Shown here one piece after another: positions 4,264 to 58,296 of a DNA stretch of 64,000 nt. The first letter of the stretch is position 1. Every line of letters starts with the position of its first letter. The DNA is from Lingula anatina. Taxonomy: Eukaryota > Animalia > Brachiopoda. The notes beneath the pieces were generated by a model. That model ran no database searches, was not told the DNA's origin, and saw only the letters and a program-made list of their open reading frames with translations. The position numbers and the translations under genes are program-made. The stretch is taken from positions 3,844,001 through 3,908,000 of the forward strand of contig CM120645.1 in assembly GCA_051362555.1 (NCBI GenBank), in the 5' to 3' direction.

Positions 4264-4437
4264 TTTACCTCCGCCAAGGAGGTTATGTTTTCACCCCTGT
4301 TTGTTTGTTTGTTTGTCTGTCTGTCTTTCTGTCATCAACATAACTCAAAAAGTTATGGACCGATTTTGATGAAATTTTCAGGAACTGTCAAAAGTGGGCC
4401 AAGGAACAGATTAGTATTTGGTGGTGATCCGGATCAT
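4264..4437 (+). mobile_element. Second, 3'-truncated HINE copy in inverted orientation
   Basis: ttacctccgccaaggaggttatgttttcacccctgtttgtttg...ggtggtgatccggatc is a near-exact reverse complement of 3611-3775. Confidence 0.7.
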
Positions 4438-26178: not shown

Positions 26179-26213
<35 letters not shown>

Positions 26214-27806: not shown

Positions 27807-27850
<44 letters not shown>

Positions 27851-29450: not shown

Positions 29451-29493
<43 letters not shown>

Positions 29494-32400: not shown

Positions 32401-35400
32401 AAAGTAATTAAATTCTGCCTCAAAATTTGAAAAAATAATTACACTATAGTCAATTTCTGTGTGATTTTTCTGAAAAAATTACCAATGTGAAAATCAGTGA
32501 AGGTTTAGCTAGCCTGCATCAAGATGTTGATAAGATGAAAGGTGCAATTATTTATGGATTTATGTTCATTTCTAAAAGATTTTATGAGATCTAAAATTTC
32601 TAATGGCATAAAGTTTGGTATGAAGAAAAAGTTACCAAATTAATTTTTCTTTTGTTCTGCATTCCAAGGACTTAACGGGTAAGTTCAGATGTCTGTGATG
32701 TAGGAATCGAGTGAATTTTTTATGTGGGTGTTGGTGGGTAACTTGCTGTATCTTGTTTTAGGACTCCAGGATAGATTGTTGAATTTTTTTTTTTGCTTCC
32801 CTTTTTTTCTGATGGCTTTTAAAAAATTGAAGTGAAAAAAAAATTTATACAGTATATATATTTTAAAGGAAGTGTGGTTTTCTCGAGTCTGTACCTGATA
32901 TTTTGCAGTTGATTGGGTATGCGATACTGGCTTATACCAACACCAGATTTTATGAAAATTGAATAAGCAGTTTAAATAAATTCTCTGTAATTCAGATGCC
33001 AGATCGTTGGGATGATGTTCGCGTGACTGTAGAAAGACCAGGGCGGGTGGACCAGAACAGTGTCTGTGCCAACAGCATTCCTCAAGATGACTTCAAGGCT
33101 ACCAGTCTACCTGCAGGTCAGTCAACAGACACCCATGGGCTACTGTCCACTCACATCCATTGGCTGGTTCCACAGAATTACTTTAAATTGAAAGTTGGTT
33201 TTTATCTTAAGAACCAAAATTTTGGTCTACTTTTATTTTAAAAAAAAGCAGGTAGTAGTCCACTAAAATAGAATATCTCTTGGTCTAAAACTGTTTTTTG
33301 GGTAAAACATGGTGTTTGAGTCGATTTCTGGAAATGTTTTTAAAAAGTTTTTCTTTTTTTGTTAAAATAGCATACAATCAAAAGTGAAAAATCAATTAAT
33401 AAATGGCATAATAATGCATTTCAGGTATTCGTTACTACACAGTCTCCCCGCCATCTTGTTTAGAGACAGGTGTTTCATATACCATCAAATTAGAATTCAA
33501 CAGGTACAAGAGTGACAGAGCTACACCTGACGCCACTGCCTTGATTGATTCAGTAAGTCAAGTTTTCATATATTTGTAAAGAATTGGAATTTCTATTTGA
33601 AATAAAAGTTTTACTGTGTTCACTAAAAACTGAAAGCTGTTACTGGGACTGCAACAATATTTAAGTGATTTTTATCACATTATTTTTATTTCTTTAAACT
33701 TCTGTATGGTTTAACAAATAGTTGAACATAAATTTATACTCAAGAGGACTTAAGTATGTGAAATCAATTATTTTAACTCAATTTAATTTATACAACATCA
33801 CATATATTCTTATTCCAGATTGTCCTTGTCCCAAGAATAAACAGTATTCCTGGCACCCCACAGGAGATCACCACAGATTTCGAGCGCTACCGCTGCCGAG
33901 AGGACCAGCTGACGGCAGCCAGGCCAGACCTTGCTGAGGTTTGCAAGAAATACCTCTTCAGTTTAGGAGCCATCATTCACCAGCAAGCTCTTGGTAAGTG
34001 TAAATCTTCAGTAGTTGTGTATGGATATTGCATATTTTGGAAAGGTGCATTGCTGGTAATTAATCAGCAACGGTAAATTACAGAACTTCATAACAAAGTT
34101 GGAAACTAGCATTAGGATTGTGTTTTTACACTGAGTGCATTAAGATTAAGTCAATATTTGGCTTTGAAGTAGAAATTCCACTGCATGGGTAGTAGTGTTC
34201 AACTAAACATGCCCAAAAATGTTTTTAGTAATGAGAACATTAGATAGTGTTCTGCCCTCGAGTTACTATTGCAGGTTTAAACAACACTCTTTCTGTTGAA
34301 AAAAACTACTCATTGCTGAAAAACCAAATTATTAATTGTCAAGTGAATAAATGTATAGATAGATAAATAGATTTGAATAAACACCTGGTTATCTTTTCAG
34401 ACTGTGAATGTGACCCCACTGGCTCCGTGAGTGCCGTGTGCGACCCCTCTGGTGGTCAGTGTCAATGTAAACCAAATGTCATAGGAAGACGCTGTGATAA
34501 GTGTGCACCAGGAACGTATGGATTTGGACCACAGGGATGCTTAGGTTAGTGACAAACCCAGTCTGCAACATAAATGCTAATCTCAGTTAATTTTAAGCTG
34601 CGCCCAAAAAATAGAAATGTAACTTTGTTTAGCCAGTGGACAGTGTTTCTGCTTTGGGTCAGTTGATTCCTTGAAACTGGTGCCCAGAAGGGCTAGTAGA
34701 TTTTTTTTACCTGTACCTGTAATGCTTTTCGTTGTCGTTTAAACTTCACTTAAAATGTTTCATATATAATTTCAGCCTGTAACTGTAATGCTCTCGGTTC
34801 CCGCGACAATTTCTGTGATGTGACTTCTGGCCAGTGTCTGTGTATCCCTAACGCCTATGGCCGCCAGTGTGACCAGTGTCAGCGTGGGTATTATAACTTC
34901 CCCAACTGTCGCCTGTGTCAATGTAATGGTCATGCTGACACCTGTGAGGACACCACAGGGCGATGTATTGGATGTAGAGATTACACTGCTGGAGACAATT
35001 GTGAACTGTGAGTATTGTTTTTGGAATGTTTCACCATTAGCACACCCTAGTAGAGTTGTTTCTATGTGGCACAGTCATTAAAGCAATATCTGCCTAATCT
35101 TAATACACTTTGGTATTCACTATGTCTCAGCGTGGATAACCAAATATTTCTCACTTTTCTAGCTTTATATTGCATTAATAAAAATAATAGCAGGATATCA
35201 GTGGTTATCAGTTTTAGGTTTATATTCTTAATTCTAAAGTTCCTTAATAATTACCTGCTAAAAATTGTTGAGAAATGCATTGTACACAGTCTGTTCTCTC
35301 AGGTGATCCATTTTCTCATATCTTTCCCCATTGATTTTCAGATGTGTCCGTGGTTACTATGGAGATCCCAGACTAGGCGCCAACATTCCTTGTCGTGCCT

Positions 35401-38400
35401 GCCCATGTCCTGGTGGCCAAGGCAGCGGATTCCAGCATGCAGACACGTGCAGCTTGACCAGAGAACAAAATGTCCGCTGTGACTGTCGCCCTGGGTACAC
35501 CGGTGACCGTTGCGATCGCTGTGCTGATAACTTCTATGGCAACCCAGTTGTACCTGGTGGGGAATGCAGGGCATGTTTCTGTAATAATAATATTGATCCT
35601 GACGTACCTGGTAGCTGTGACCCTGTCACTGGGGAATGTTTGAAGTGTCTGTACCAGACTGAAGGTTACAGCTGTGAGAGGTGTAAGGAGGGTTACTATG
35701 GAGATGCAACAAGGCAGACATGTCAGGGTAGGTTGATCTTCAGTAAACAGTCATGAGCTTTTTCTGCAGAATTCTGCATTTTAAATTGAATTCTGATGGT
35801 TCCTGAGATTCTTCTTGTCTGATATTCGATAAATTTTCAGAGTTTTTTTTTTTTTTAAACCTAGGCTCATGCCGGGTAAAAGAAGATTTGTAAATGAAGA
35901 GGAAAGTAAAAATTTTTAACTTTTGGATTGTTTAAAGTTGCTTAAGACTTTCAGATTTTTGTTTTACATAACATTGGAGAAAGATATTCTGTATTTAAGC
36001 TTTGCTATGATTATGTTTAATCTTTGAATATTACAGCATGTGTGTGTAACATTCTCGGCACAAACCGCTCCATGGGAGCTTGTGACATTGTCACTGGACA
36101 GTGTCCATGCTTGCCCAATGTGATTGGACGAGCTTGTGACCGGTGTGCTCCCAACCACTGGAAGCTGGCCAGCGGTACTGGCTGTGAGGCCTGCAACTGT
36201 GACCCTGATGGGTCTCTGTCCACTCAGTGTAATGAGGTGAGCTGTTGTTGTCTGTTGCTTTCAAGTTTGATGAAATAACCAGAAATTTTTCTAAAAAATG
36301 TGTGTGTGTAAAAGAGTTTTAATAAACTCTTTCTAGTTTTGTTCATGCAAAATATATTTTTTGAAGGGGTGCCACTTTAATTGGATTGAAAAGAGATATG
36401 TAAAATTTAGATAGGGATGTAATATTGAAGCCTTTATGACATTGCAACTTGAGCTTAGGTAGCAGACATACTTTCACCCTTTCATAAGTGCGGTATGTGG
36501 TATTGTTTGCCTCCCGTAGGTGGCACTACTGATTGCACATTTCCAAGACAAGATTTTAATTTTACTTGCAATAGATATAATAGATAATGAAGTATACGAG
36601 TTATGTTTTCCAGTTTGATGGCCAATGTGAGTGTAAGCCAGGAAGAGGAGGGCTGACATGTGGAGAATGTGAGGCATTCTACTGGGGCAACCCTAACATA
36701 GCCTGCTATCGTAAGTACAGACAGCATTGCATCCCATTTCAGTAAAGTTGGTCTTAACTTTAAGAATAAGTTTTTGACAGCTTTGACTAAGGGTTTATCC
36801 AGGTACTAAATGCTAGAAATGCCATAGGTCTGAGCACACAAAAATTTTCAGTCTATAAAATAAGTTATGGAAACTAATGACATGAGAACTCGCTGACCCA
36901 TATCACGCCCCCTATTGGCATCACATAACCAGAGAGAAATTAATTTTAGTCTTAATTCCTCATGTCAACTGTTTGAAATTAAACATATACTGTGAACATC
37001 AAAAACATGGCAAATATGCAATACTCCCAACATCACATATATCATAAAAAATGTCATTTGCTGTCCAATTATGCCCTGAAGTCATTGTAAATCTGTGATA
37101 TGCCTCAGATTTTTTCAGTTTGTTCATGTCTGTTTATTTACTTGATTTCTATCCCACTAGCCTGTGATTGTAACCGGGAAGGGTCAGCCAGCCTGCAGTG
37201 TGACCGCCGTACTGGTCAGTGTGAGTGTCTGGAAGGGGTGGCTGGACACAAGTGTGACCGCTGCGAAAGGGGGACCACGGGCCAGCTCCCCAACTGTGTG
37301 CCCTGTGGAGAGTGCTTTGATAACTGGGACAAGATCATTCAGGATCTGGCGGGTAAGTTACTGTGTTCTTGGTTCATAGTTCATTCTGGAGATCAAATAT
37401 GGCCAACCTACTTTTAAATTTTTCAAAAATAGAAATCAGATTGATAGATTAGTGTAGACTCAATGATGTGACAGACTGTAACCTAATAAAACTGTCTTGG
37501 TGGCCCAGAAACTAAAAATGGGTTCTTTGGTTAGTGTCATCTTCAGTTTTAATATAAACAAATTAGAAATTTGTTAAAAGAATGAAATTCAAGATCTAAA
37601 TACAAGGACCCATCATTAACCCATTTCTTCTTCAGGAAGGACACGCTTGCTGATCCAAGAAGCAAATGAAATCAAAATTCAGGGTGTAAGCAAAGCTTAC
37701 GAGCAGGTGTTCCGTGAGATGGAGAGCAAACTTGACCAGGTTCGCCAGCTAATCGAAAATGCAAATGTCTCTGTGGCTGATATTGAGGGGCTAAAACTTA
37801 AGCTGGAACAGCTCAGGTAGGATATATTGACATGTTTAAAATTGTGTGTACTTAAATGTTGGTGTCATGTATTTTTGGCCGCATCAGGTGTTACTAAATA
37901 AGAAGTTTTTAAATGATGTTTTACAAAGGAAATATTTAAAGAATTAAAGGAGAATTAAATGTCTGTCATGCCTACAGAATCTGCTAGGGGGTAAAGATAA
38001 TTACCCCCTAACAGTTTTTTCTAGGCATTATTATTAAGCCAGTATTTATATATACTTAATATCAATGAACAATCCAAGTACCTTAAGTTACAGATAAATG
38101 TTATTATATACATTCAGAACCCAGTTGGATGGCCAGGCCAACTCTGTTCAGGGAGTTGAAGATGGAGTGAAGGAAGCAGGAAGAGAAATCCTGAAGACGG
38201 AAAATAGCATTCAGGTTCTACGTCTTGGCATTAATGGACTAAGACAAGCCGCTGATGAACTGAAGAAGGAAGCTGAGGAACTGAAGGAACAGAATGTACA
38301 AGGTGAGTCTCACACCTAATTTGACATTATTTTGTTGTCACACCTAACACAATTTGATGTTATTTTCTTAAATCTTTTTCTCACACTCTTATAGGAGATA

Positions 38401-41400
38401 ATAAAATTGCAGTAATAGTAATTCAGAGAGCTGTCATAGATACACATTTTTCAGAGAGGAAATTTTATAAACAATATTAAAAACACATTCTATTGGCCAT
38501 TTCTTAAAAGGTGCGTTTGAAAGTTTGCAAAGCAGCCAGAAAAGGTCGGAAGCAGCGCAGAAGACTGTGGATGACACAGATGACACTGTTGCCCAGTCCA
38601 AACAGACACGAGAACGAGCAGAGCAGTTCATGGCAGACAACCAGGCCGAGTTCCAGCGTAAGACACAGGAAAACGAAGATGCTATTGAAGATGTGCAAAC
38701 TGACATCGAACTCCTCGAGAATCAGCTGGCAGATGTTAACAACATGGTAAAATTTCTTATTAAAGAAACATTAATTGATTTATTTATCTGAACGTTAAGT
38801 TAATAGTATTCTCTTATTGAAGTAATCTGAAATGCACTTTTTCTTAAAAAATAAGAAGTTGATCCCAGTGCTCTTTGTATGTGTCAGATTCCAAATTTCC
38901 ATGCAAATTGTGGATTTAGGAGTTTTAACATTCACTTGATATCTTTTAGTAGACCAAAACCATTTCTTGCCTGGAGATTTGAACACTTAAAGATCTTTTT
39001 ATTTATTCCTCCTAGGTATGTGATGGGCGTGGCACACCATGTGACGTGCTATGTGGTGGAGGAGGATGTGGCAAGTGCGGCATTATAGGTGGCGGTCAAA
39101 GCTGCGATGCAGGTGCCGTGACCAAGGCGAACAACTCCCTCTCCCTGGCTAAACAGACAGAAGATACTCTGGCAGAGAGGTCAAAGAATCTGCAAGACTT
39201 ACTTGGAGAGGTAAGAATTGATATGATGTATTTATTTATGTGCAGCCAAGCAGGTCTTTATGTCATGAAATTGGTTTGTTAATCTTCTTATAACTGGCAA
39301 ATCAGGTCATTATCTGGTCTTGGGAGTGTATATATTGAAGAGAAAGGTGAACATGGGCCATAAATGAATACATGGAATATACATTACACAATTTGGTACT
39401 GTGCCATTCATACTTCATTGTTCAAGCTGTCCCACAATCATATTTTCCGTCTACATCTCTATTAAAAGCTTCTGGGCTTTCTCAATTCAGGCCTTAAAAA
39501 CCATAAATCCCTCAAATAAAAGCATGTGATGCCAGTATTTCCTACTAAAGGCAGGCACAGACAGTCTGCGTATTGCAAGAAACATTTAAAACTTAATTAT
39601 TTAATTAAAATGGTATGAAACACCAAATTTAACTGATATCAAGCAATAATTCATGATTAGGCGAAATTTACTTTTTATCCAAGGAAAAATTGGTAGGAAA
39701 ATCCTGAATATAGGATTTTTGAACATCTCAGTTGTAACTGTTCAACTTACATCTGCAGTGAACAATTACTGGTTGTCTTTAGTATTTTAAGCTTTGGTAA
39801 AATCATCACAAGATAACAGGATTAACATGTAGTTTTTACTGTTCTAGGTAGAAGCAGTGGAAGCAGATGCCTCAGTGGCAAAGAGCGAGGTACAGGCCGC
39901 ATTTGACAAAGCTGAGCAAGCCAAGAACATGTCTGAGTCATCTCGAACAGAGTTACAGAAACTACTGGAATCAATTGCAGAGTTCCTCACCAAGGGTGGG
40001 GCTCGCCCAGAAGATATCCGTCAGGTCGCAGAAGAGGTTTTGGCAATGAGTATTTCACTGACACCAGAGGAAATAGAAAATTTGGCTGCGGAGATTAACA
40101 AAACTGTCATTGGACTTACCAATATTGACGAGATTTTGGATGCCACCAGGAGTCGGAATGAAACGGCTCACAAATTGCAGGAAGAAGCTAAAAAAGCCAG
40201 GTGAATTACCAGAGTATCACTTAAGAACTTATGTAATTTTAGAACAAAAAAATTGATACACTTAAGGTAGAGATAAATTCATACCAGTCCACTGAAATAA
40301 AATTAAAGTTTTGGTCTAAAACTTAAACAATGGAGTCTTTATGCCATAAAACAGATGCAATAGTTAATTAACTGGATCATTTCTGATTTTACTTTGTGTC
40401 AAACACCGTCAAATATTGCTTTCAGTGCTGATGCGGCCACCATCTTGGACACAGCGCGTAAGGTGTCTGACCGCCTGGACTTGGCCGAAGAGGCTCAGGA
40501 CAAAGCCCAGAAGGCTATAGACCAAGCCAATGAGAATATTAAGGAGGCAGAAACACATCTCACTCAGGTATAGTATTTGGGCTGTTGTATACTGAACATC
40601 AGTAGAAATACATGTTATTCCGAGTTTTACACATGTATGATTAATTTACTTGGTAGTTCACATTGATTACTAGTTATTGTAATGAGTGTATATATATTAA
40701 AAGTAAACCATATCTGAAGACAAAAGGTGAAGTTTTTTTCTGATGTGTGCATTTTCCATGATACCTAATGTATTGGTGCTCTTTTGATAATTTATCTGTT
40801 TAAATAAGATGCATTTAAATGTTATGTCATTTGAAAATTAGACTCTCTGTAGCTTCAGTGGGGTTTAAGCTGTATGTATTTTGAAATGCCATTGATCACA
40901 TTTTTATGTACAGACACAGATGTGTCTGTACATATAGCCATCATCTGCGTCTGTCGTCGCCGTCGTCGCTGTCGTCGCCGTCGCCGTCGCCGTGCACTTT
41001 TACCGATAACACGATAAGTGGAAAACCATTTTACCTTTTGACTTGAAACTTGCAGAACTGATGAATATTCATAATACGCAGGTCAAGTTCGAAAATCAGC
41101 ATGATCGGGTCACTTTTAGGGAATTTATGCAGTTTTTTCTCTTTTTTCAGCATATATGCAGCACCGATAACACGATAAGTGGAAAACCATTTTACCTTTT
41201 GACTTGAAACTTACAGAACTGAAGAATATTCATAATACGCAGGTCAAGTTCGAAAATCAGCATGATCGGGTCACTTTTAGGGAATTTATGCAGTTTTTTC
41301 TCTTTTTTCAGCATATATGCAGCACCGATAACACGATAAGTGGAAAACCATTTTACCTTTTGACTTGAAACTTACAGAACTGATGAATATTCATAATACG

Positions 41401-43971
41401 CAGGTTAAGTTCGAAAATCAGCATGATTGGGCTATTTTGAGGGAATTTATGCTGTTTTTTCACTATTTTCAATATAAATGCAACACTAATAACACAATAT
41501 AAGAAAAACGGATTGGCCAATTGTAATTATACTCACAGGAGTGGTCAATCTTACTAAAACGCAGGTTGAGTTCGAAAATCAGCATAATCGGGCCATTATT
41601 TTAGAAGTTATACTGTTTTTTTTCACATTTCCTCAGATTCAATTCTTAAGCATGTTAACAGTCTCATTATTTAACTAATAAGATGCCTAAAAGTGTTTGT
41701 TTGATATTTCCTGCATCTTTACAACATTGTTAGTTGATTATGTAAAAAACATGGTAAACTTGTTATCATGTATTGTGTAATAAAGTGTCAAAAATGGAAA
41801 TAAACTCATATCATTGCAGTTTGTCAGATTCAATCATCCACTATGTTCAGAATCTCAGAATGGAGGAAATTGGACATTTAACACTGTTCTATTGATACTT
41901 TTCCCATCTCATCAATTTTTTTAGTTGGTCATATAAAAATGGCAGTAAAATGTTTATTTTGTTTTATGTTAAAAAAGTGTTAAAAATGGAAATAAACCCA
42001 TTTCAGAACAGTGCTGTCTTGTTTACATTTTGGCATTTTCAAGGCGTGACTTTGAAGTTCCATGGGCCTGAAGACCTTTGCTAGTCACATTTTCTGAATA
42101 TCTGTGATACAAATATTTTATAATTAAAAATTGATGGTCATTAAGCTGTTAAACATTATGTAATATTGCATCAAAATTTGAAGAAACCCCTATTTTGGGC
42201 ACTGCTTCCATGATGACCATTTAAGGAAAATCATGTCACTTACTGTTCTCAAACTTACAGGAAAGAAACATGGGACTAAAATACAGCTTCAGTAGGCAAT
42301 GCAGTCTGTTTGGTATTTTTTTTTTTTTTTTTTTTTTTTTTTGGCAGTTAAACAGTTTTTTGTGAAAATTTAATTTTTCACATATTGGCATTTTCAAGGT
42401 GTGACTCTAAAGTTCCATGATCTTGAAGACTTTTGCTTGTCACATTTTCTGAATGTCCATGTTACTAATATTTTATTAATAACATTTGATTGTCATTATG
42501 CTGTTAAACATTATTTAATGTTGTATCAAAATTTGAAGAAACCCCTATTTTGGGCACTGCTCCTATGATGACCATTTAAGGGAAATCATGTCACTTACTG
42601 TTCTCAAACTTATAGGAAAGAAATATGGGACTAAAATACAGCTTCAATAGGCAACGCATACTGTTTGGTAAATTTCTCTGGCAGTTTTTTGTGAAAATTT
42701 AATTTTTCACTTATTTGCATCTTTATTTTCTGTTCTTTGTCTGTACATTTGACAGCTTTGCTGCCTTGTTAAACAAGTAGTTTTTAAACATGGTAGTTTT
42801 TTGCAAATGTATTTTTTCTCATTTCTGATATTGAAAATTAAAATTAAAGAAAATTATTTAAACAGTACATACTTTGTTCTTTTTGAAGGGGTTTCTGAAT
42901 GTAATAGTACCAAATTGAAATCATCTGTTTTATTCCTTTATTTCTGCAGGTTGAATCAGAGACGGATGCCGCACTGGGCAAAGCCAATGCTTCCCTGGAA
43001 GCTGTCCAGAACTTGACCACAAAACTGGAGGATGTCAAGAAGAAATATGTCCAGAATGAACTCAGCGTCCAGCGAGCCAAAGGGGAGGCTGACGGAGCCA
43101 TGAAAATGGCCAATAAGGCAGAATCTGTGAGTTTGGCAAAGTTTGGTTTTCAATCGAATATATTTTGCACTTTTAAAACATGTTTGCAGTATTTTTTCTG
43201 GTTTGTGACTTGAATATAAGAATGTATCTTTCTTAATTCATTAAGTTTTACTGGTTATAATCCCAAGTGGAACATAGCTTTAGGAAGCAACTTAGTTTCC
43301 AAAGTGATTGATTATTATCACTAATAGCACTGTAAGATGTGACATTGTGATTGTTTTTTTTTTTTTTTGTCAGGATGCAGCAGACTTGGAGACCAAGTAC
43401 CAGGATGCTTCTGCTCAGCTAGAGGCCAAATACAACATGACCAAGGATGCAAAAGAGAGAGCAGTCCAACTTAAAAATAATGCAACAACTTTGGCACAAA
43501 GTACTCAGTTTAAACTGTACCAACTTCGAAGTAGGTTGAAAGCAAATTCTTATATAGTTGAACACTTTTTTGTCAGTTATAGATATTTAATGTAAAGATA
43601 AAATATTTTAAAGTTCTCATAAATGTATTTTTTGTAGAAAGCTATAAGGCACTTAAACATATTAGTTTGTCTGCACATAACTTAAATGTTTATTTGGTTT
43701 ACATAAATTACTGAATGTTCATAGTTTCTTCTTGCCAAACAGAGCATCTGACCTCAAACCTAAACAAGCAAAAAAAAAATTAAAAAAGAAGTGAAATTCA
43801 CTCATTTACAATGAACTGCTTTGTTCTTCAGCAATGGAGCGAGATTTCATGGAAAGAGAGAAGTCTTTGACAGAGCTTTCTGGCGAGATTGAGGCCCTGC
43901 TTGCACGAATGAAACTTCTCACTCAAGAAATCCAGGAAAAGTCTGATTTCTATCGAGATTGCCAGCCCTAA
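16273..43971 (+). CDS. LAMB1: Laminin subunit beta (beta-1-like), complete, 28 coding exons
   Basis: Exons: 16273-16324 (signal peptide [18 protein letters not shown]), 21679-22229 (LN domain: [45 protein letters not shown]), 22462-22579, 28762-28907, 29269-29389, 29947-30135, 30495-30674, 30971-31080, 31414-31629, 31957-32115, 32996-33116, 33425-33552, 33819-33993 (LF/IV-B), 34401-34544, 34776-35007, 35342-35727, 36037-36236, 36614-36710, 37161-37352 (LE repeats ending [10 protein letters not shown]), 37636-37816, 38118-38302, 38511-38746, 39016-39210 (beta-knob [14 protein letters not shown]), 39848-40200, 40426-40567, 42950-43126, 43374-43530, 43832-43971 (coiled coil ending FYRDCQP*). Boundaries are GT-AG. 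Confidence 0.96.
28565..28735. repeat. Degenerate ~25-bp minisatellite just upstream of a laminin exon
   Basis: The unit cccat(c/g)tca(a/g)caccaatacctcttg recurs about 6 times with variation. Confidence 0.6.
40900..42770 (+). mobile_element. HINE/Helentron-type element carrying internal tandem-repeat arrays, in a laminin intron
   Basis: It starts TTTTT-atgtacagacacagatgtgtctgtacat (hairpin/subTIR), followed by a (GTCGCC)n microsatellite. Then come a 161-bp tandem repeat (starts 41002, 41163, 41324, diverged fourth ~41485) and a ~355-bp duplication (~42032 and ~42387). It ends gtctgtacat + gacagctttgctgcc hairpin + TT. Confidence 0.75.
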
Positions 43972-46278: not shown

Positions 46279-46527
46279 CCCCTGCGAATATTTGTCTCAT
46301 TTAATGTTCACTTACGGTTCTCAATCTATTCTAGAACATTTGGTGTATTTTTTACAGTTCTAGTGTTGTTCTGTAATAAATGTTACAGTTCGAGAACTGT
46401 TTTTGGGATGTCATTCGGAATGTCCTTAAACAGACTGAGGATTTTTTTTAATTTAAAGAGCAATACATGTTCTAGGACAGATTGAGAACCGTAAGTGAGT
46501 GTTAAGTGAGACAAATTTTGGCAGGGA
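46279..46527. mobile_element. MITE with ~60-bp imperfect terminal inverted repeats
   Basis: ccctgcgaatatttgtctcatttaatgttcacttacggttctcaatct is inverted relative to agattgagaaccgtaagtgagtgttaagtgagacaaattttggcaggg. Confidence 0.6.
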
Positions 46528-46937: not shown

Positions 46938-48949
46938 GTTCTAAAAGATCATTCTAGATATTCTAGAGATCATTCTAGAACGCGTCATTCGACGGCTAGA
47001 CGACAAAGAGGAACTGTTCATATTGTATATTATTAATCTTATTATATTTCAAGCGATTTTTTCTAACTTAGACATTGGCGTACAAAACCCATGGTCTGTT
47101 GTCGCGTTAGATACTTATGTGGTGTAAATTTGAAAATGTTGCAAATATTTTCTGCACGAGACAAAAGGATCTCTTGGTAAAAAGTAATGTAAGGTGACAA
47201 ATATAGTACAATAGACTTTTTTTGGTAAAATTAATGCAACGATCAGAATAACTGTTCTGTCCATATGGTCGGAGTTTTGAGTGAAACAAAGTCGCTTTGA
47301 AAAACTGTCAGGTTTATTTGGTTGAATATGAAAATAAAAAAGAACAAAAAGGCACACACACACACACATTGATATATTTACAAGAAAAAGTGATCAGAAC
47401 TCATGAGATATTCAGCTTGTATGTACAATGTACAAAGGAATGTACTCTACGCATACGCGTTTTCGCTGTATAATCTGAAGCAATATGCCTGGATAAGGTT
47501 AGCCCTTGTGGTTTAAAATAAGTCTTATAACATCAGATGTAATACTTTGTACATTCCAATCAGGTCTTAAGAGCTTGTCCACGAGAGAACCAGCCCAGGG
47601 TGGCAAGGTGGGGGTCAGCGGATTTCAACCAAATTTGTTGTATGGAGGCATATTAGGAAGTTATTCATGAGTTAGGAAGGAATCCCAAAAATATCCTTTC
47701 TTCAGAGAATTATAGCCTATTATAAGTCATGGCTTATGTAGCCTCTTTGAGACTCCATTTTTACCTTGGAAAAATAATGATATATTTTGTGTAAATTAAA
47801 CAAAAATGGAGAAATCTAAAAAATATTAGACCTTACAATCATTGAAAACAATCATTTGGCTTGCCACAGATATATGTAGAATTCAGATAAGACCCTGCTT
47901 GGGCGAGCCACACCCATTTATAACACCCCTCCCCCCAAAGTCCAATTTTGATACTACCATCTTTAATTGCATATATCTCCATCTTTACAGGGTTTACAGC
48001 TATAAAACTGCATGAATATTTTAGGCAGATATGGGTCATTCCAAATCAAGTTTCAAAAGTTACTGCTGTATTAAAACAGGTACTGAAAAATACCTCCAAA
48101 GTTGGCCATTTTTAAGGCAAAAAATCGTGGTGGATTCATTCAAGTCTATGTAGACGATAGGTTTGATTAATTTATTAAACCATTTTGCTCTACAATGATG
48201 TTACTAAATTAATAGGGCTGGTGAACATGGAAAGTGGGTGTGTACTAATGAATATCAGGTCAGTAGGTCAAGGTCACTGGGCTTCATATTTGTAAATTGC
48301 CATATAAGGACTTCTTAATTTATATGGACAAAAAATTTAGAGGAAATAAATCATAGACTCTGTTACTTTGGATAGGCACTGGCAATTAACTTGAGAGTTT
48401 ACAAGATAATTTTAATATATATATATATTTTTTAATATCATCAATTTGGTGAATACAAATTAAAATCTTAGTTTAGTAGCGATTTCTTTTTGGTGCAATA
48501 TTTATCATATAGAGATCAGGATATGCCATAGTATTTATGATAGCAAAGCCAGAACAAATCTTTTTTAATTATCAAGAGTTTTTTTTTAATCATCCACACC
48601 ACTTTTTGGTGACTATTTATGAGCATACAGTAACTAAAAAATTATTCAATTTAGTTTATTGTTGTCTCAGATGAATAATTTCAAATAATAAAAAAAAATC
48701 ACAAAATTATAATATAGCAATACATGCAAAGCAGTGCAACATTAGTTGTGATCATTACAAACTATATCATAATGTAGCAAAACAAGATAATTTTCTATTC
48801 AAAAAGCAAAACTAACACAACCGCAAAATATATCCTGGTGTTATGAAACATCTTTGCAGTTTTGTATCAAACATTACAGCTCTTAACATCAAGGTTTTTA
48901 ATACATTCAAAAATAACTGCCGATTTTTTCTTCCTGAATAGTCTGTAAC

Positions 48950-49740
48950 CCTTCTTACTGACATTTCAATCTCATCTTCATGCTCACAAATGCTAGGTTC
49001 TGCTGGCCTGTTTCTTGTGCCCTTCTAAACTCCTTCAGTAAAAACTCCTATACTTTATTTGAATATAGTTTCAAAGGTTTAGATGACTTTAAAGCTCATC
49101 CATTGTGTAACTCAGTGAGATATTCAAGAGGGTGGAGTTCTCTCACAGCTGATGTGCTTTAAGTTTTTCTTTAGTCAGATTGTTGGCCCACTAGACTTTA
49201 ATTTGATCAAAAGCTGTTTTTTTTTTGGCACATTTCATAACTGTGGTCTAAAAAAGGACCTTACAAATACTCTTCAGTCTTAGTAGCAAAAGATTTCAGA
49301 GAAAACTTCTCTGGACAAGAAAAAATTTCCCTGTTTGTGATCTTGCTTGGTATAGTCCCAGTTGGCATATTTGCCTCAGAAAAACCCAAATTAACTTTAA
49401 CATCAGTATCACTCATGTTAAAACTGCTCAAGGAAGGAAGACACCTTTTCTCATGTTGTAGGAATCAAGAAAGCTAAATTGTTGTAATTGGACACTCCAG
49501 TCCACGCGGGTTTGGAAGATGTCTGTCTAGCTGGATGTAGAAAATGGCTCCAACTGCAGAAACTAGGGCCTCATGCATCTCCTCAGCATTTGTTATATTG
49601 TGGCTTTCATTTACATACTGTACATGCCTTTCTACAACAGCCATCATTTCCACACTAGTTTCAGTTTCTGCAAGACTTTGGACTCTTTTGCTGACCATAA
49701 GATCACTGTGTGTCAAATAACACTTCTCAAATATGCCTGA
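48950..49740 (-). pseudogene. Transposase-like remnant with stop codons
   Basis: Minus-strand fragments ERHVQYVNESHNITNAEEMHEAL, FSCPEKFSLKSF...TAFDQIKV*WA and G*ALKSSKP...V*EFLLKEFRRAQETGQQ...VSMKMR resemble the C-terminal half of Sola3-type transposases (from memory of family motifs; not searched). Confidence 0.55.
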
Positions 49741-50250
49741 AATATAAATATAGCTTACTATAGACACATGAAAACACTTATCTGAAAGTTAATTGATACA
49801 TTGATGAAAAATAAATTATTATCCCATTTGTCCATGTTTTATAAGTAAGGCATGGTTTCGAATATTAATTATGATGAGCCTAGCAATTTTGCCAAGACCA
49901 GCCCTAGCTTCAATCTAATTCCAATTGTTACCCTTAAATTTATTTTACCCAAGTACCATTAAACCTACATAAATACCCACACAAATATAGCTTAAAAGAT
50001 AAAATTATCACAGGTCCTTAGGCTGCAATTTCATTATTTGAAAGGGGGCATTTTTCTTTTTAAAAAAATGGAGCGTTTACCATTAAAAAATTACACCTAG
50101 ATCATTTTTCTGAGTGAACTTTTTTTCTGGATTTTAGCCTGTATTAAAATACAAACAAACCCGTTTCTTACCTGAACCAAGTGGCATCAGTATATTCAAA
50201 TGCCTTTTTGTCTACACTGACATCTTGTAGTGCCAGGGGCAGGTAGAACC

Positions 50251-50324
50251 GGCCGGGTAGCTCAGTAGGTAAGAGCACTCGCCCTGTAAGCGAGGGGTCC
50301 CGGGTTCGATTCCTGGCCTGGCTG
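50251..50324 (+). tRNA. tRNA-Thr(UGU)-like sequence inside the 5' LTR (element-borne, probably not a functional tRNA)
   Basis: The cloverleaf GGCCGGG TA GCTC AGTAGGTAA GAGC A CTCGC CCTGTAA GCGAG GGGTC CCGGG TTCGATT CCTGG CCTGGCT G has anticodon TGT and C at position 33. A T5 run follows 4 nt downstream. Confidence 0.65.
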
Positions 50325-50441
50325 GTGATTTTTCTGCACTCACCCCAAATCGCTACAATGGTGGCAGCGGTGTTGCGAGATAGGGCTCGCGTCTTTCGGC
50401 ATTTGGGGGGGAGGAGTGTAGTGCCAGGGGCAGGTAGAACC

Positions 50442-50515
50442 GGCCGGGTAGCTCAGTAGGTAAGAGCACTCGCCCTGTAAGCGAGGGGTCCCGGGTTCGA
50501 TTCCTGGTCTGGCTG
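50442..50515 (+). tRNA. tRNA-Thr(UGU)-like sequence inside the 3' LTR
   Basis: Identical to the first copy except for one C>T change in the acceptor stem (G-C becomes G-U). Confidence 0.65.
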
Positions 50516-51705
50516 GTGATTTTTCTGCACTCACCCCAAATCGCTACAATCTGCAAGTTAATCCCATGACATATTTCGTTATAGGCTCGTTTTCCCCTGT
50601 GTGGATGGTTTCCAGCACAAACCAAGCCCATATCCCAGTGCTGGTCACATGGTGTAACCCATTTATTCTCCCAAAGATACTTGAAAAAGTCCAATTGCTG
50701 TCATCGGATACAAAAGAATTCACACCTGACAAGAATCAGTGTGCTTTCGTAACTCACGCTGTTTTGCTTCACGTAAACGCGACGAAGATGACTGTTAATA
50801 TCTCTGTTGCAATTTTTCAATACACTACATGTTTTTTTATATCTGTAGTCAGAGTATAAATCACATGATATACGACTTCGTTGAGGAAGATTTGTAAACA
50901 AACAGTCTGCGATTTCCGCCATGTTGGATAATGACGTTGTGTTGTTCTGACGTTAGTACATTAGTTTCACATGGTTTTAAAATGTGTTAGATGCTTGTTT
51001 TAACCAGAAAAAAATTAGAATAGGTAAAATGAAAATAAAAAGTTCAACTAACAGTGTTTTAAACCATTCGTTGACTTGAAAGAGATGGCTGAAGTTCAGT
51101 GCACCGATATACGTGTTCGGATATATTTACGAAAAATGAAGAAATTAGGTCATGTTCTATCTGTTACAACGGACAAGTTGTAGAACAGCAGTAAGTTTTG
51201 ATTTCATGTATAAATAGATTAATGAGTTATCTGTTAGTCCTGAACACGCTTTACCCCAAAGACCTGTGAAGATGAAGATATTGTCAAAAATAGAAGGGGG
51301 GTGTTCAAAGCATGTGGTTTGTAGGCCTGAGAAAAACGCTTGGTTTGTTACCATGGAAACAAAGAGAGTGGAAAAAGTGTATATCATTTTAATCCCCTAT
51401 CTTTAGGTTATAATATATCACCAAACTAAATCATTTGGTGACACCTGTATAAACTTTAAGGCCAATCAATATAACCCTGTTTTTCAGAAGAATTTTTGGT
51501 TGATAAACCCCCCAAATTGTCACTGGCCATATCTCTGTAAGTAGGGATTTTTTTCAGGAAATATTGCAGCCTCAGATATTGTTCATATAAAGGTTCAAAC
51601 ACACCAAATATGATGTAAATCCGTTCACCCCCACCTTGCCGCATTTTCTACATTTGGTTTGGTTTTCTCGTGGACACACACTTAAGCTATATACAGAGTC
51701 ACAGT

Positions 51706-54093
51706 CTACACCATATCTGCGTTTGAAAGCGCGCTCATTTCCTGCAGAAGGAGGGTCAAAGATGGCCGCAGAGCAGGATCGTCTGCTACGCACTGTCCCA
51801 TCAAAACTTTCAAATCCTCCATCTTCTCTCCCTCCGCCAGCGCCTGCAGCACGTGGCCTAAACTGTACACATCCCAGGCTGCTGAAGAGACGCCATGTTC
51901 GAAGATTTCAGGCGCCAGATGGACGCTATCGTGGCGGAGAGCTCTCAGGGTTTCTAAAGAGAACCTCTCTGGTGGCATCATGGGCTTGTCGCCGTTGAGG
52001 GCGCACGCGGCTCCAAAGTCCACGATGCGAGGGTGAATGGCACCCTGACGGTCGCGTGTCACCATGATGTTCTCGTACTTGAGATCAAAGACACCGACTC
52101 CTTTCTGGAACGAATAAAATTTTGTCTTAAAGTATATTTCATAAATAATTTAAAGACGTCAGTATGGAATATTAGAAAAGTTATATGAAATGGACACAAG
52201 CACATAACGACCAAGGGCCATCTTCTCGAAGGGCTTTAGCTTGTATTTTTTTAAAATAAATTTTCACGTCAGTCCAATTGTTCACGTAGGTTGGTATTCT
52301 CGAAAGTTTGTAAGTTACTACGGACAGTTACGTGAAAAGTTACAAACAATCGTAAGTACAATAGAAGTAAGTAGGCCTACACTAGTTTTGAGAATAGTGC
52401 TAAAGACCAAGTAACAAATAGTTACAAAAGTTACAACCTTTTGAGAATTCGGCCCCAGGCAGAGAGAGAGCAACGAAATTCAAAACATAAAGAAAATAAA
52501 AACGGAAAGGCAATGTACACCAATTTCAATGTAACAGTCCAGAAATATACACGTCTGAAAAAAAAAAACATAGAACATTTTAAAAATTATATTGAAACGC
52601 ACCTCGTGTATCTCCTGCACCCCTTCCACAAGTTCCAGGCTGAAGTTCAGCCAGTCTTGTGACGTCAGTCCCCGGCGAGCAAAGTAAGTCTGCGAGAACT
52701 TCTTCAAGTCGAAGCACTGCAAAGTGCTCTTCCTGAAGCGAACCAGTTCCGTGACTACAGCCAGGTGGGCAAATCTGCCCTCTGCAACGCCGCCGTCCGC
52801 CCCGTAGTCGACCAACCCGTAGAACTCAGGGCAAAGCTTTGTGCCGGCAAGGTGGCCCAGGACGGCTGCCTCGCGGCGAATTCTCTGGTCGGAGGAGTAT
52901 TTCCTCTTGAACATCTTCACGGCCACGACGTCGCCAGTGGGCCGGTGAGTGGCAAGGAAGACGGTGCCAAAGCCACCGCTGCCTATTTCAACCAGCCTCC
53001 CGCGAGAGTCTCTATCAAACTCGATGTCAGCAGGAGAGCATTCCTTGATGTTTTTCTGAAAAAAAGGAAAAAGCGCCTATTATTGAAAGTTCAGGAAATT
53101 TTGTATTTCAGACCTCTATTTGTACTGTCTTATTTCAGCTTAGTAGTAACTTGAATTTGAAAAGTAATCACTGAACACTGTTCTACATCGTATTGTGGAC
53201 AAAAGTTACAGGTGTGTGTGTGTATGTGTGAGTGTGTGTGTGTGTGTGAGAAAGAGAGAGAGAGAGAGAGAGAACGACGTCCGTAAAAAGTAAAATTAAG
53301 AAGAAAAGAAATTTTTCATCACACCAACCAGATCATCGTCAATGGTAGCCGATGACAAAAATCCAGGTTTCAGACTTTCAATGGTATCCAAAGAAATCTG
53401 AAGAGAAACATCAGCTATGTCCCGGAGGAGATCTGGAGTACGGAGCGATCCATTTCCTCCATTCATTCCTTGTACGTGGAGGGATTCATTGGCGGCAGTG
53501 CTGATTGAGATGGTGGGACTTTTACCAGCGCAAAACAGACTCCGCACCCTCTGTTTCATGACTGCCCAGACACTAGGCCGTCCCTGAGAATGATAACAGA
53601 TCCCATGTAATAAACTGTAATTGCATATGCCTTCATTAATTGCAAGTTAAGAAGTAAAATAAAAGCAAATAAGTTAAAGTCCAGAAAGTTATGAATTGCG
53701 AGTTTAATTTTCGTAAGAGTCAATTAGTGAGTAAATTATTTTAGTATTTGGCGAAAATGAAAAAATGCCAAAGTCACACAAATTTTTAATTGGTTGGTAA
53801 ACTTTACATTCCAAAAAGTATTTTTCCATGAGGTGTATAACGCCTGCAGACTGGACTGCATTCAATTCTAACTTAGATTTGTGATGAAGTAGGTGGTTTA
53901 TTTAAGACTTTCAACAAAAAGATTTTAGTGGGGCATAGAACATAATTACGTTAATGTTCACAGTGAAATGCCGATATAAAAAAGTCATTCCTACATGCAA
54001 ACAGTAAGGAGATATCCTTTTAAAACCACTTACCAGGGTAGAAACCCTCCTTGTTTTGGTCTTCATAGCTCGCATTTGAGAAATACATAACAT
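51706..54093 (-). CDS. Protein kinase, Ser/Thr-type fold, atypical catalytic loop; tandem copy A
   Basis: Exons 54093-54034 (start uncertain; donor gtaagt), 53583-53329, 53055-52603 and 52104-51706, all phase 0. Motifs: GSGGFGTV, VAVK, RREA, GVFDLKYEN, DFG, APE, DVYSLG, DPALRPS. Confidence 0.85.
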
Positions 54094-54925
54094 TTTCACA
54101 ATAAGTAAATTGAAAAATACGTGCAAAAAACACCGTCAAACGTAGACGTTGTCAGAGTCGAACGTGATTATAGCAACGGCTCCACGGCAACCGCTGCCCT
54201 ATGACGTAATTTTATTGTGACATGCAGTGGTTTGTAACATTTCGATGACGTCACTGAGGGGACGTCTGCTATGTCGCCATATTCAACTGTTTTTCTTTGT
54301 GGCCGCCACATCCTCACGACAGGAGTTGTGTATTTGTTTTTTCTAAACTTAAAATGCACCATCCTGAATGAGATATTATGCATATTTTGAAAAAAAAAAA
54401 AAACAAAGAAAAACAGGAGTCTGTTTTCAGGATGCGCGTAGCCAATATTTTTCTGCACGAGGCAAAATCTCTTGCAATCAATTTAAAGACCTCTTGGCAA
54501 AAAGTAGTATAAGATGACACATATAGTACAATAAACAATAGTTTATGGGAATTTTTGTAAAATTAATGCAACAATCAGAATAATTGTCCATTTGATGTGG
54601 TCGGTGTTTTGAGTGAAACAATGTCGCTTTGAAAAACTGTCAGGTTTATTTGGTTGAATATGAAAATAAAAAAGAGCAAAAAGGCACAGCCACAAACACA
54701 CACGCACACACACACACGCACACACACACACAGACACACACACACAGTAATGTATTTACAAGATGTACATAGGAATGTACTCCACGCATACGCGTTTTCG
54801 CTATATAATCTGAGGCAATATGCCTGGATGAGGTTAGCCCTTGTAGTTTTATGTAAGTCTGATAACATCAGATGTAATATTTTGTACATTCCAATCAGGG
54901 CTTAAGTTATATACAGAGTCACAGT

Positions 54926-55666
54926 CTAAGCCATATCTGCGTTTGAAAGCGCGTTCATTTCCTGCAGAAGGAGGGCCAAAGATGGTCGCAGAGCAGGATC
55001 GTCTGCTACGCACTGTCCCATCAAAAATTTCAAGTCCTCCATCTTCTCTCCCTCCGCCAGGTCCTGCAGCACGTGGCCTAAACTGTACACATCCCAGGCT
55101 GCTGAAGAGACGCCATGTTCGAAGATTTCAGGCGCCAGATGGACGCTATCGTGGCGGAGAGCTCTCAGGGTTTCTAAAGAGAACCTCTCTGGTGGCATCA
55201 TGGGCTTGTCGCCGTTGAGGGCGCACGCGGCTCCAAAGTCCACGATGCGAGGGTGAATGGCACCCTGACGGTCGCGTGTCACCATGATGTTCTCGTACTT
55301 GAGATCAAAGACACCGACTCCTTTCTGGAACGAATAAAATTTTGTCTTAAAGTATATTTCATAAGTAATTTAAAGACATCAGTATAAAATATTAGAAAAG
55401 CTACATGAAATGGATACAAGCACATAAGGGCCGTATTCTCGAAAGGTTTTAGCTTGAATTTTTTTAATTAGATTTTACACGTCAGTCCGATTGTTCACGT
55501 AGGTTGGTATTCTCGAAAGTTTCTAAGTTCCTACGGACAGTTACGTGACAAGTTACAAAAATTCGTAAGTACAATAGCTGCACTAGTTTTGAGAATACTG
55601 CGAAAGACCAAAGTTACAAGTTTACGTAAATAGTTACAAAAGTTACAACCCTTTGAGAATACGGCC

Positions 55667-55715
<49 letters not shown>

Positions 55716-56464
55716 CGAAATTCAAAACATATAAATAAATAAAACTGAAAAACAATGCACACTTATTTTAATGCAACAATCCAGAAATATTATACTGTCA
55801 ACTAATCACACGTCTGAAAAAATGATCAGAACATTTTAAAAATTATACTGAAACGCACCTCGTGTATCTCCTGCACTCCTTCTACCAGTTCCAGGCTGAA
55901 GTTCAGCCAGTCTTGTGGCGTCAGTCCCCGGCGAGCAAAGTAAGTCTGCGAGAACTTCTTCAAGTCGAAGCACTGCAAAGTGCTCTTCCTGAAGCGAACC
56001 AGTTCCGTGACTACAGCCAGGTGAGCAAATCTGCCCTCTGCGACGCCGCCGTCCGCCCCGTAGTCGACCAACCCGTAGAACTCAGGGCAAAGCTTCGTGC
56101 CGGCAAGGTGGCCCAGGACGGCTGCCTCGCGGCGAATTCTCTGGTCGGAGGAGTATTTCCTCTTGAACATCTTCACGGCCACGACGTCGCCAGTGGGCCG
56201 GTGAGTGGCAAGGAAGACGGTGCCAAAGCCACCGCTGCCTATTTCAACCAGCCTCCCGCGAGAGTCTCTATCAAACTCGATGTCAGCAGGAGAGCATTCC
56301 TTGATGTTTTTCTGAAAAAAGGAAACAGCGCCTTTTATTGAAAGTTCAGGAAATTTTGTATTTCAGACCTTTATTTGTACTGTCTTATTTCAGCTTAGTA
56401 GTAACTTGAATTTGAAAAGTAATCACTGAACAGTGTTCTACATCGTATTGTGGACAAAAGTGAC

Positions 56465-56542
<78 letters not shown>

Positions 56543-57371
56543 GAGAGAGGGGTAGAGAACGAAGTCCGTAAAAAGTAAAGATAAGAAGAAAAGAAATTCT
56601 TCATCACACCCACCAGATCATCGTCAATGGTAGCCGATGACAAAAATCCAGGTTTCAGACTTTCAATGGTATCCAAAGAAATCTGAAGAGAAATGTCAGC
56701 TATGTCCCGGAGGAGATCTGGAGTACGGAGCGATCCATTTCCTCCATTCATTCCTTGTACGAGGGATTCACTGGCGGCAGTGCTGATTGAGATGGTGGGA
56801 CTTTTACCAGCGCAAAACAGACTCCGCACCCTCTGTTTCATGACTGCCCAGACACTAGGCCGTCCCTGAGAATGATAACAGATCCCATGTAATAAACTGT
56901 AATTGCGTATGCCTTCATTAATTGCAAGTTAAGAATTAAAACAAAAGCAAATAAGTTAAAGTCCAGCAAGTTATGAACTGCAAGTTTGATTTCCTTAAGA
57001 GTCAACTGGTGAGTAAATTGTTTGTATTTGGCGAAAATGGAAAATGCCAAAGGCACATGAAGTTTTAGTTGGTTGGTGAATTTCGCAATCAAAAAAGTAT
57101 TTTTCCATGACATGTATAACATCTGCAGACTGGACTGCATTCAATTCTAACTTAGATTTGTGATGAAGTAGGTGGTTTATTTAAGTTTTCAACAAAAAGA
57201 TTTTAGTGGGGCATAGAACATAATTACGTTAATGTTCACAGTGAAATGCCGATATAAAATAGTCATTCCATCATGCAAACAGTAAGAAGATATCCTTTTA
57301 AAACCACTTACCAGGGAAGAAACCCTCCTTGTTTTGGTCTTCATAGCTCGCATTTGAGAAATACATAACAT
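54926..57371 (-). CDS. Protein kinase, tandem copy B
   Basis: Exons 57371-57312, 56865-56614, 56311-55859 and 55324-54926. Near-identical to copy A, with a few substitutions and one 3-bp indel in exon 2. The frame is intact. Confidence 0.85.
55428..55667. mobile_element. MITE (Harbinger-like GGGCC...GGCCC ends) in the last kinase intron; diverged paralog at ~52215-52456
   Basis: gggccgtattctc...gagaatacggccc terminal inverted repeats with internal agttac repeats. Confidence 0.6.
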
Positions 57372-58296
57372 TTTCACAATAAGTAAATTGAAAAATACGT
57401 GCAAAAAACACCGTCAAACGTAGACGTTGTCAGAGTCGAACGTGATTATAGCAACGGCTCCACGGCAACCGCTGCCCTATGATGTAATTTTATTGTGACG
57501 TTTAGTGCTTTGTAACATTTCGCTGATGTCATTGAGGGGACGTCTCCTTACGTCTGATGACTTCGTCAAATACGTCTCAGTCGCAGCGTTCCATTGTTCA
57601 TCATTGTAGCCACGTCATCCTCACGAATCGAGTATTTCAACAGTTGTGTATTTGTTTTTTCAAAGCTTAAGTGCATGATCTTGAATGAAAAATTATGCAT
57701 ATTTGTAAAGATAAACATGAGTCTTTTTTTCGGGATTTTTTTTTCTGGGTGGATAAAACAGTGGCCAGAACAAGAACAACGGTAGTTTGGGACCTAGAAT
57801 AAAAATAGACAAGCGCTAAGGCGTTTTATCATGTGAATGGGTAGACAGACATTTGTAGTGGAAACAAAAAATTATTATTTTTAGGAAACAATTCTATTCA
57901 CATCACTAAAATCATTTTAAATCAAGTTTTCTTCACTGTACATTGTTAGTCTCCCCACTCTGCACATTTGAATCAATGGAGCAGACGCACTTCCTTGACC
58001 AACTTTGAAATTTCGCTCCATCTAGAATTCACCTGTTGCGATTATAAGATTCTGTAACGTGTGATTGTTACTTTTGAGGTTGGGGCTTTGATTTGATTTT
58101 TCTTTCTTTCTTTCTTTTTTCATGTATTCGATAACTGAAAGGTAACAACAGCGTTACTTTGTTCTTCATGTCTAAAAAATTACAACCCTGTTAGGCCTTC
58201 AAAGGCCGATAACAGAGCCAATAATATTTTTTCGTCGATTGTCATGTTTGTGCAATCTTTGCTAAATAAATATGGCACTGGACTGTGGATGGCGTA

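What the first reader, a model, noticed from the sequence alone, without database searches (positions are those of the whole stretch)
50222..50552. Miniature LTR retrotransposon whose LTRs are built around a tRNA gene
Seen: what looks like a tandem pair of tRNAs is a complete 323-bp element: ATCT | TG..LTR(132)..CA | a | TGGTGGCAGCGGT | 33-nt spacer | GGGGGGGAGGAG | TG..LTR(132)..CA | ATCT. Each LTR holds a 74-nt tRNA-Thr(UGU)-like cloverleaf with intact Pol III A/B boxes. Established: TG..CA LTRs, a TGG-starting PBS, a PPT and a short TSD define LTR retroelements, and the PBS is complementary to the 3' end of tRNA-Leu (..ACCGCUGCCA-CCA). Plant Cassandra TRIMs carry 5S rRNA in their LTRs. As I recall, tRNA-bearing TRIMs with 4-bp TSDs in animals have been named Helenus, so the class may be known while this family may not be. 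Inference: this is a SINE/LTR hybrid that uses a Pol III promoter but borrows RT and integrase from an autonomous tRNA-Leu-primed (probably Gypsy) element. One mismatch in 132 bp suggests a relatively young insertion.
Basis: partly seen in the sequence, partly recalled or inferred. Interest (0 to 1): 0.88.

Follow-up and report, generated by a model that had tools for sequence, protein, structure and literature searches.

The report
Known tRNA-bearing mini retrotransposon, Helenus-1_LAn
What looks like two tRNA genes side by side is one 323-base, gene-less jumping element that matches the published family Helenus-1_LAn from a lamp shell almost letter for letter; it is likely transcribed by RNA polymerase III and likely moved by a Gypsy retrotransposon's enzymes, and it is an ordinary copy of a known family.

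Summary
It is a real insertion. Public reads show the empty site, lacking exactly 323+4 bases, in 3 of 4 DNA and 3 of 4 RNA runs, and LTR ends joined to unrelated flanks. But the family itself is published. Kojima 2024 (PMC10886601) lists Helenus-1_LAn of Lingula anatina with LTR 132, internal 59, length 323, TSD 4; by eye the core is identical and the LTRs differ at 2 and 3 bases. The scan has met this class in at least 21 genomes. Small additions: the element sits in the coding exon of a 4.1-kb TTAA-flanked repeat, and each LTR has a five-T run just after the tRNA-like unit. That run would stop polymerase III before the primer site unless it leaks, which the paper does not discuss. RNA-seq showed no defined transcript (inconclusive). 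Verdict: already known, low interest.

The parts
50222..50225 (+). left target-site duplication ATCT
   Evidence: the empty site keeps one copy
50226..50357 (+). 5' LTR, 132 nt, TGTAG..CTACA
   Evidence: 129/132 to the Helenus-1_LAn LTR by eye
50251..50324 (+). tRNA-like unit in the 5' LTR (TGT anticodon, C at position 33); A box about 50258-50269, B box about 50303-50313
   Evidence: ARAGORN; Rfam 61.9 bits; cloverleaf is the minimum-energy fold, -29.0 kcal/mol; box positions read from the sequence
50329..50333 (+). five-T run, Pol III terminator-like, upstream of the primer-binding site
   Evidence: function inferred
50334..50357 (+). putative U5, predicted to pair with the PPT/3'-LTR junction
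   Evidence: about 2% of shuffles as strong; windows chosen after seeing the fold
50359..50372 (+). [quoted passage not shown]
   Evidence: sequence against Kojima Fig. S2, by eye
50405..50416 (+). polypurine tract
50417..50548 (+). 3' LTR, 132 nt
   Evidence: 130/132 to the Helenus-1_LAn LTR by eye
50442..50515 (+). tRNA-like unit in the 3' LTR
   Evidence: 58.5 bits
50520..50524 (+). second five-T run, predicted 3' end of the template RNA
   Evidence: function inferred
50549..50552 (+). right target-site duplication ATCT
47571..51681 (-). host: 4.1-kb insertion with imperfect terminal inverted repeats and TTAA on both sides, carrying a spliced minus-strand gene whose exon the Helenus copy interrupts; probably a Kolobok-like DNA transposon
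   Evidence: empty TTAA in the neighbouring duplicate unit; spliced reads; Kolobok definition

Best explanation
This is a complete copy of Helenus-1_LAn, a published 323-base non-coding LTR retrotransposon, inserted with a 4-base target duplication; it is likely transcribed by RNA polymerase III from the tRNA-derived promoter in its first LTR and likely reverse-transcribed and integrated by proteins borrowed from a Gypsy element, with host tRNA-Leu as the predicted primer. Shown: anatomy, family identity, empty site, other insertion sites. Inferred steps: (1) Pol III starts near 50251 from the A/B boxes. (2) Part of the polymerases stop at the first five-T run and give an ~80-nt tRNA-like by-product; the rest read through and stop at the second run, giving an ~275-nt template with an ~80-nt tRNA-like R region at both ends. 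(3) tRNA-Leu primes at 50359-50372, strong-stop DNA jumps via R, and the PPT primes the second strand. (4) A Gypsy integrase inserts it with a 4-bp duplication. The tRNA-like unit serves as promoter, not as decoder or primer.
For: Table S1 row for Helenus-1_LAn: LTR 132, internal 59, full 323, TSD 4, the same as measured. Data S1 consensus by eye: internal 59/59, LTRs 130/132 and 129/132. Reads of other copies carry the consensus letters at exactly these sites (50513/50514 in 4 of 4 DNA runs; 50317/50322/50323 in RNA runs). Empty-site joint in DNA runs X1, X4, X9 (3 of 4 in the joint table, 3 studies; X3 shows it as loose ends) and RNA runs X13, X16, X17 (3 of 4; X19 shows variant joints). Loose ends at 50225/50226 and 50548 carry mixed unrelated flanks, agreement 0.48-0.68. 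Gypsy-130_CGi and Gypsy-57_CaAu share this Leu-AAG PBS. The paper assigns animal Helenus to Gypsy from PBS and 4-bp TSD. Leaky termination is documented: human Pol III stops at T4-T9 runs with 52-65% efficiency in vitro (PMC13385618), and many yeast tRNA genes read through (PMC4937561).
Against: No Pol III transcript was seen. In 4 RNA runs (about 6-25% of each read) no start or end peaks appeared. In the two stranded runs sense-strand depth on the element was at most 2; the higher depth in X17 (up to 28) is on the opposite strand, carries another copy's variants and runs into foreign flanks. These libraries would lose short non-polyadenylated RNA, so this is weak. No helper Gypsy was found, since no genome was held. 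An intact cloverleaf should attract RNase P and RNase Z, which would cut the template (inference; RNase Z cleavage of read-through pre-tRNA is discussed). The paper states that Pol III use is unvalidated. No listed piece of contig spans a junction of this filled site (only the longest pieces are listed).
Confidence: 0.85

Rival explanations
1. Same element, but its template RNA comes from RNA polymerase II read-through of host genes; Pol III makes only the ~80-nt tRNA-like RNA that ends at the first T run, or nothing.
For: The five-T run lies upstream of the PBS. The element reads seen in X17 look like host read-through of another copy. This copy sits in a repeat whose family is transcribed. 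Cassandra multi-unit transcripts read through LTRs (PMC7215508).
Against: A and B boxes are conserved across Helenus families. The read-through seen was mostly antisense to the PBS strand. The small size of all families fits Pol III.
Confidence: 0.11
2. The LTR tRNA-like unit is processed, gets CCA and primes the element's own reverse transcription.
For: With CCA added, the 3' end of this copy's unit matches 7 nt of the PBS.
Against: The match starts 4 nt from the LTR instead of 1 and is half the 14-nt tRNA-Leu match. It depends on the two bases where this copy departs from the published consensus. Kojima found no such complementarity in the class.
Confidence: 0.02
3. A genuine pair of tRNA-Thr genes or a local tandem duplication, with LTR-like flanks by chance.
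For: Two programs score both units as tRNA; the first folds as a full cloverleaf with 21 of 21 stem pairs standard or G-U.
Against: The empty site lacks exactly the element plus one TSD. The match to a published TRIM consensus is near-exact. Position 33 is C. The insertion interrupts a reading frame that is continuous across the empty site.
Confidence: 0.02

Closest known systems
Helenus-1_LAn (Lingula anatina), Kojima 2024, Biology 13:119, PMC10886601; read: abstract, main text parts 1-4 of 6, figure legends and tables, supplement parts 1, 7, 9, 10 of 11 and search hits in part 11
   Same: LTR 132, internal 59, total 323, TSD 4; internal sequence identical and LTRs 130/132 and 129/132 by eye.
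   Different: Two substitutions shared by both LTRs and one more in the 5' LTR, all in the acceptor-stem 3' strand and all keeping pairing. The paper gives no primer assignment for the LAn families in Fig. S2, no copy number for them in the text, no empty site, and does not discuss Helenus terminators.
Helenus-2_LAn and Helenus-3_LAn (same paper)
   Same: Same Leu-type PBS start, same layout, T run after the tRNA-like unit. Loose ends at 50463 and 50540 in the reads look like family 3 (by eye).
   Different: Diverged LTRs (127 and 132 nt). Family 2 has a different acceptor-stem sequence that still pairs 7 of 7 by eye.
Cassandra TRIM (plants); Kalendar 2020, PMC7215508, read: search passages and section 2.4; the 2008 paper was not held
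   Same: Non-coding LTR element with a Pol III gene-derived promoter and terminators in both LTRs; read-through across LTRs reported.
   Different: 5S rRNA-derived, 565-860 bp, plant; the only member with validated Pol III transcription.
tRNA-derived SINE2
   Same: Internal A/B-box promoter from a tRNA gene.
   Different: SINEs have no paired LTRs, PBS or PPT and move by target-primed reverse transcription.

Membership tests
Helenus (TRIMp3) | TRIM under 1000 bp, non-coding, two LTRs | tested here: met
   323 bp, LTRs 131/132 identical
Helenus (TRIMp3) | tRNA-derived sequence with A and B boxes in the LTRs | tested here: met
   motifs TRGCY, YGG-like and GGTTC are present (A-box GG preceded by A here)
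Helenus (TRIMp3) | PBS after the 5' LTR and PPT before the 3' LTR | tested here: met
Helenus (TRIMp3) | 4-bp TSD (animal type) | tested here: met
   ATCT/ATCT, and the empty site skips 327 with 4 ambiguous; TSDs of other copies were not paired up
Helenus (TRIMp3) | dispersed, multi-copy | tested here: met
   loose ends with mixed unrelated flanks at both LTR ends; copy number not measured
Helenus (TRIMp3) | transcription by RNA polymerase III | tested here: inconclusive
   no start or end peaks in 4 RNA runs whose libraries are unsuited to short Pol III RNA; unvalidated for the whole class
Helenus (TRIMp3) | mobilised in trans by a Gypsy element | not testable with these tools
   no genome held; only shared PBS with oyster and goldfish Gypsy families
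Helenus-1_LAn | over 90% identity over 90% of the consensus (the paper's full-length rule) | tested here: met
   318 of 323 positions equal, compared by eye with Data S1; sizes equal
functional tRNA-Thr(UGU) gene | cloverleaf with canonical invariant bases | tested here: not met
   cloverleaf present but C at position 33 (U33 rule recalled); Helenus-1_LAn is not among the candidates seen in Fig. S1 panels A-F
Kolobok (host repeat only) | TTAA TSD, 5'-RR..YY-3' termini, DDE transposase | tested here: inconclusive
   TTAA on both sides and a single TTAA in the empty duplicate; ends GA..AC fit only in part; no transposase match

The most novel reading that the evidence does not exclude
Helenus LTRs keep a deliberately leaky Pol III terminator. 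The same T run must be passed once and obeyed once, so each copy makes both an ~80-nt tRNA mimic and an ~275-nt genome RNA (yield peaks near 50% termination). The U5 segment pairs with the polypurine tract to bring both priming sites together as a recognition signal for the helper Gypsy particle, and the cloverleaf is kept by selection on RNA structure, not only on promoter boxes. This 323-base element would be a minimal test substrate.
Probability: 0.3. Interest if true: 0.45.

Novelty: already known. Interest (0 to 1): 0.12.

Why it matters
As a discovery it matters little: class, family, sizes and TSD length are in print. In practice such copies inflate tRNA gene counts; the only two tRNA calls in this window are the LTRs. 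The open question for the class is how a Pol III transcript gets past the terminator-like run in the first LTR and escapes tRNA-processing nucleases. In two literature searches the only papers on the subject were the 2024 paper and two others listed; I read passages of one of them, which merely cites it. I saw no experimental test of Helenus transcription there.

Tried and rejected
No whole genome was held, so copy number, paired TSDs of other copies, solo LTRs, tandem arrays and the helper Gypsy were not examined. A PBS-gap-PPT pattern scan of metagenome contigs gave 0 matches. The run search listed no RNA holder, which says nothing on expression. Folding the predicted 273-nt template was no better than shuffles (z 0.10; 109 of 200 as good). 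The U5-PPT duplex (-24.8 kcal/mol) was matched by about 100-119 of 5000 shuffles and the 88-nt core by 42 of 2000, with windows chosen after seeing the fold and a control window shifted by 8 nt giving only z -1.37: a weak hint. Self-priming was rejected. The host protein stayed unidentified: Pfam gave nothing under cut-off for 6 pieces, two homologue searches gave 0 hits, and the one hit of the HMMER search is a tandem-repeat ORF, taken as spurious. A recalled claim that CT after a T5 run weakens yeast Pol III termination could not be verified in held papers and is not used. Whether the empty site is an allele or a paralogue could not be told, because the flanks are a multi-copy repeat. The sequence look-up in earlier findings returned only 2 unrelated bacterial tRNA notes.

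Full report
Observation. The window shows ATCT at 50222-50225, a 132-nt repeat at 50226-50357, a 59-nt core, a second repeat at 50417-50548 and ATCT at 50549-50552; of TSD lengths 2-8 only 4 fits, and the repeats differ at one site. Both begin TGTAG and end CTACA. Each holds a tRNA-like unit: ARAGORN calls tRNA-Thr(TGT) twice, the only tRNAs in 64 kb, and Rfam gives 61.9 and 58.5 bits. The first unit folds as a full cloverleaf at minimum energy; the second comes within 0.3 kcal/mol. The anticodon loop has C at position 33, where tRNAs almost always have U (rule recalled). The core starts one base after the LTR with a stretch complementary over 14 nt to tRNA-Leu-AAG as printed in Kojima's Fig. 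S2 (by eye) and ends in a 12-nt purine run. No further copy lies in the window.

It is a real insertion. No genome was held, so I laid public runs. In DNA contigs a joint from 50221 to 50549, skipping 327 bases with 4 ambiguous, appears in X1, X4 and X9 (3 of 4 runs, 3 studies); X3 shows the same form as loose ends. That is the element plus one TSD copy. RNA reads show the same joint in X13, X16 and X17 (3 of 4); X19 shows variant joints. Loose ends at 50225/50226 and 50548 carry mixed, unrelated flanks with agreement 0.48-0.68, so other insertion sites exist. Two limits apply. The flanks are themselves a multi-copy repeat (divergent contigs lie on them), so the empty form may be a paralogue rather than an allele. 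And no listed piece spans a junction of this filled site, though only the longest pieces are shown.

Identity. Searching the supplement of Kojima 2024 (PMC10886601) with short motifs hit Helenus-1_LAn of Lingula anatina. Table S1 gives LTR 132, internal 59, length 323, TSD 4. By eye, not by an aligner, the core is identical, the 3' LTR differs at 50513-50514 and the 5' LTR at 50317 and 50322-50323; reads of other copies carry the consensus letters at these very sites. The window therefore likely comes from that species or a close relative, which fits the animal laminin-beta exons upstream. The scan's index holds 111 notes with these words in at least 21 genomes. Age: 1/132 has a 95% interval of 0.02-4.1%, so 'young' is plausible but loose.

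Surroundings. The copy lies in a 4.1-kb insertion (47571-51681) with imperfect terminal inverted repeats (70% over 86 nt) and TTAA on both sides; the neighbouring duplicate of a kinase-gene unit has a single TTAA there. RNA reads join 50171 to about 49736, matching GT-AG signals on the minus strand. The reading frame runs in phase across the Helenus site and the intron, with two stops in this copy. TTAA with purine-start ends suggests Kolobok (PMC9587614, passages), but one end fits only in part and no protein match was found.

Mechanism. Shown: anatomy, family, insertion. From the paper (main text parts 1-4 and tables read): animal Helenus share PBS types only with Gypsy and make 4-bp TSDs, and the tRNA-like part does not prime; Pol III use is not validated. 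Gypsy-130_CGi and Gypsy-57_CaAu have this same Leu PBS. Inferred: Pol III starts near 50251, the tRNA-like unit forms R, tRNA-Leu primes, the PPT primes the second strand, and a Gypsy integrase inserts.

One point is not covered by the paper: 'terminat' occurs twice, both about Cassandra. A five-T run sits 4 nt after the tRNA-like unit in both LTRs, upstream of the PBS. By eye, a run of 4 or more T follows box B in 22 of 25 Helenus LTRs in supplement part 7 and 10 of 12 in part 9 (two of eleven parts, related families, no background control). A template RNA must pass the first run and may stop at the second. Human Pol III terminates at T4-T9 with 52-65% efficiency in vitro (PMC13385618, passages), which would leave about a quarter of transcripts full length (my arithmetic); yeast tRNA genes often read through (PMC4937561, passages). 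U5 is predicted to pair with the PPT/LTR junction, but only about 2% of shuffles are as strong in windows chosen after the fact, and the whole 273-nt RNA folds no better than shuffles. Cassandra is also reported to fold into a hairpin (PMC7215508, section 2.4).

Expression. About 6-25% of four RNA runs was read. No start or end peaks appeared. In the two stranded runs sense-strand depth on the element was at most 2. X17 had up to 28 reads deep on the opposite strand, with another copy's variants and foreign flanks, which looks like host read-through. X13 had up to 10 and 7 on the two strands, X19 at most 1. Poly-A and standard libraries would miss short Pol III RNA, so this neither supports nor refutes.

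Rivals. Pol II read-through as the source of the template remains possible (0.11). Self-priming, a lead from two earlier scan notes, gives only 7 nt at the wrong offset and rests on bases absent from the consensus (0.02). A true tRNA pair is excluded by the empty site (0.02).

Verdict. Real, correctly described, already known down to the family. Interest 0.12. The leaky-terminator and RNA-structure reading is the only unpublished angle I found in searches (probability 0.3, interest if true 0.45). Repbase and Dfam could not be searched, and supplement parts 2-6 and 8 were seen only through term searches.

Noticed in passing
window 47571-51681: 4.1-kb TTAA-flanked repeat with imperfect terminal inverted repeats and a spliced minus-strand gene (about 50922-50172 joined to 49736-49477) without any protein match; its family is transcribed in 4 of 4 RNA runs. 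Possibly an undescribed Kolobok-like element.
   Followed up: partly
window 47165-47571 + 51681-54398 versus 54485-57715: Tandem duplication of a protein-kinase gene unit (82-89% identical; Pfam Pkinase); the first unit is split by the 4.1-kb insertion.
   Followed up: partly
window 21603-40204: Exons of a laminin beta gene (Laminin_N, LAMB1 helical domain).
   Followed up: no
window 50463, 50524 and 50540 (loose ends): Contigs that diverge here look by eye like the sister family Helenus-3_LAn, so it is present in the same runs.
   Followed up: partly
window 50312-50324 and 50503-50515: All of this copy's departures from the published consensus fall in the acceptor-stem 3' strand and keep pairing (G-C versus G-U); with so few C/T changes opposite G this is not significant.
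   Followed up: partly
window 41002-42723: Tandem repeats with periods of about 161, 191 and 355 bases (self-BLAST).
   Followed up: no
window 3603-4444 and 46280-46526: Long inverted repeat pairs (203 nt at 90%; 60 nt at 87%), MITE-like.
   Followed up: no
window 48053-48077 and 51177-51201: A 25-nt inverted pair (84%) inside the host repeat; role unknown.
   Followed up: no
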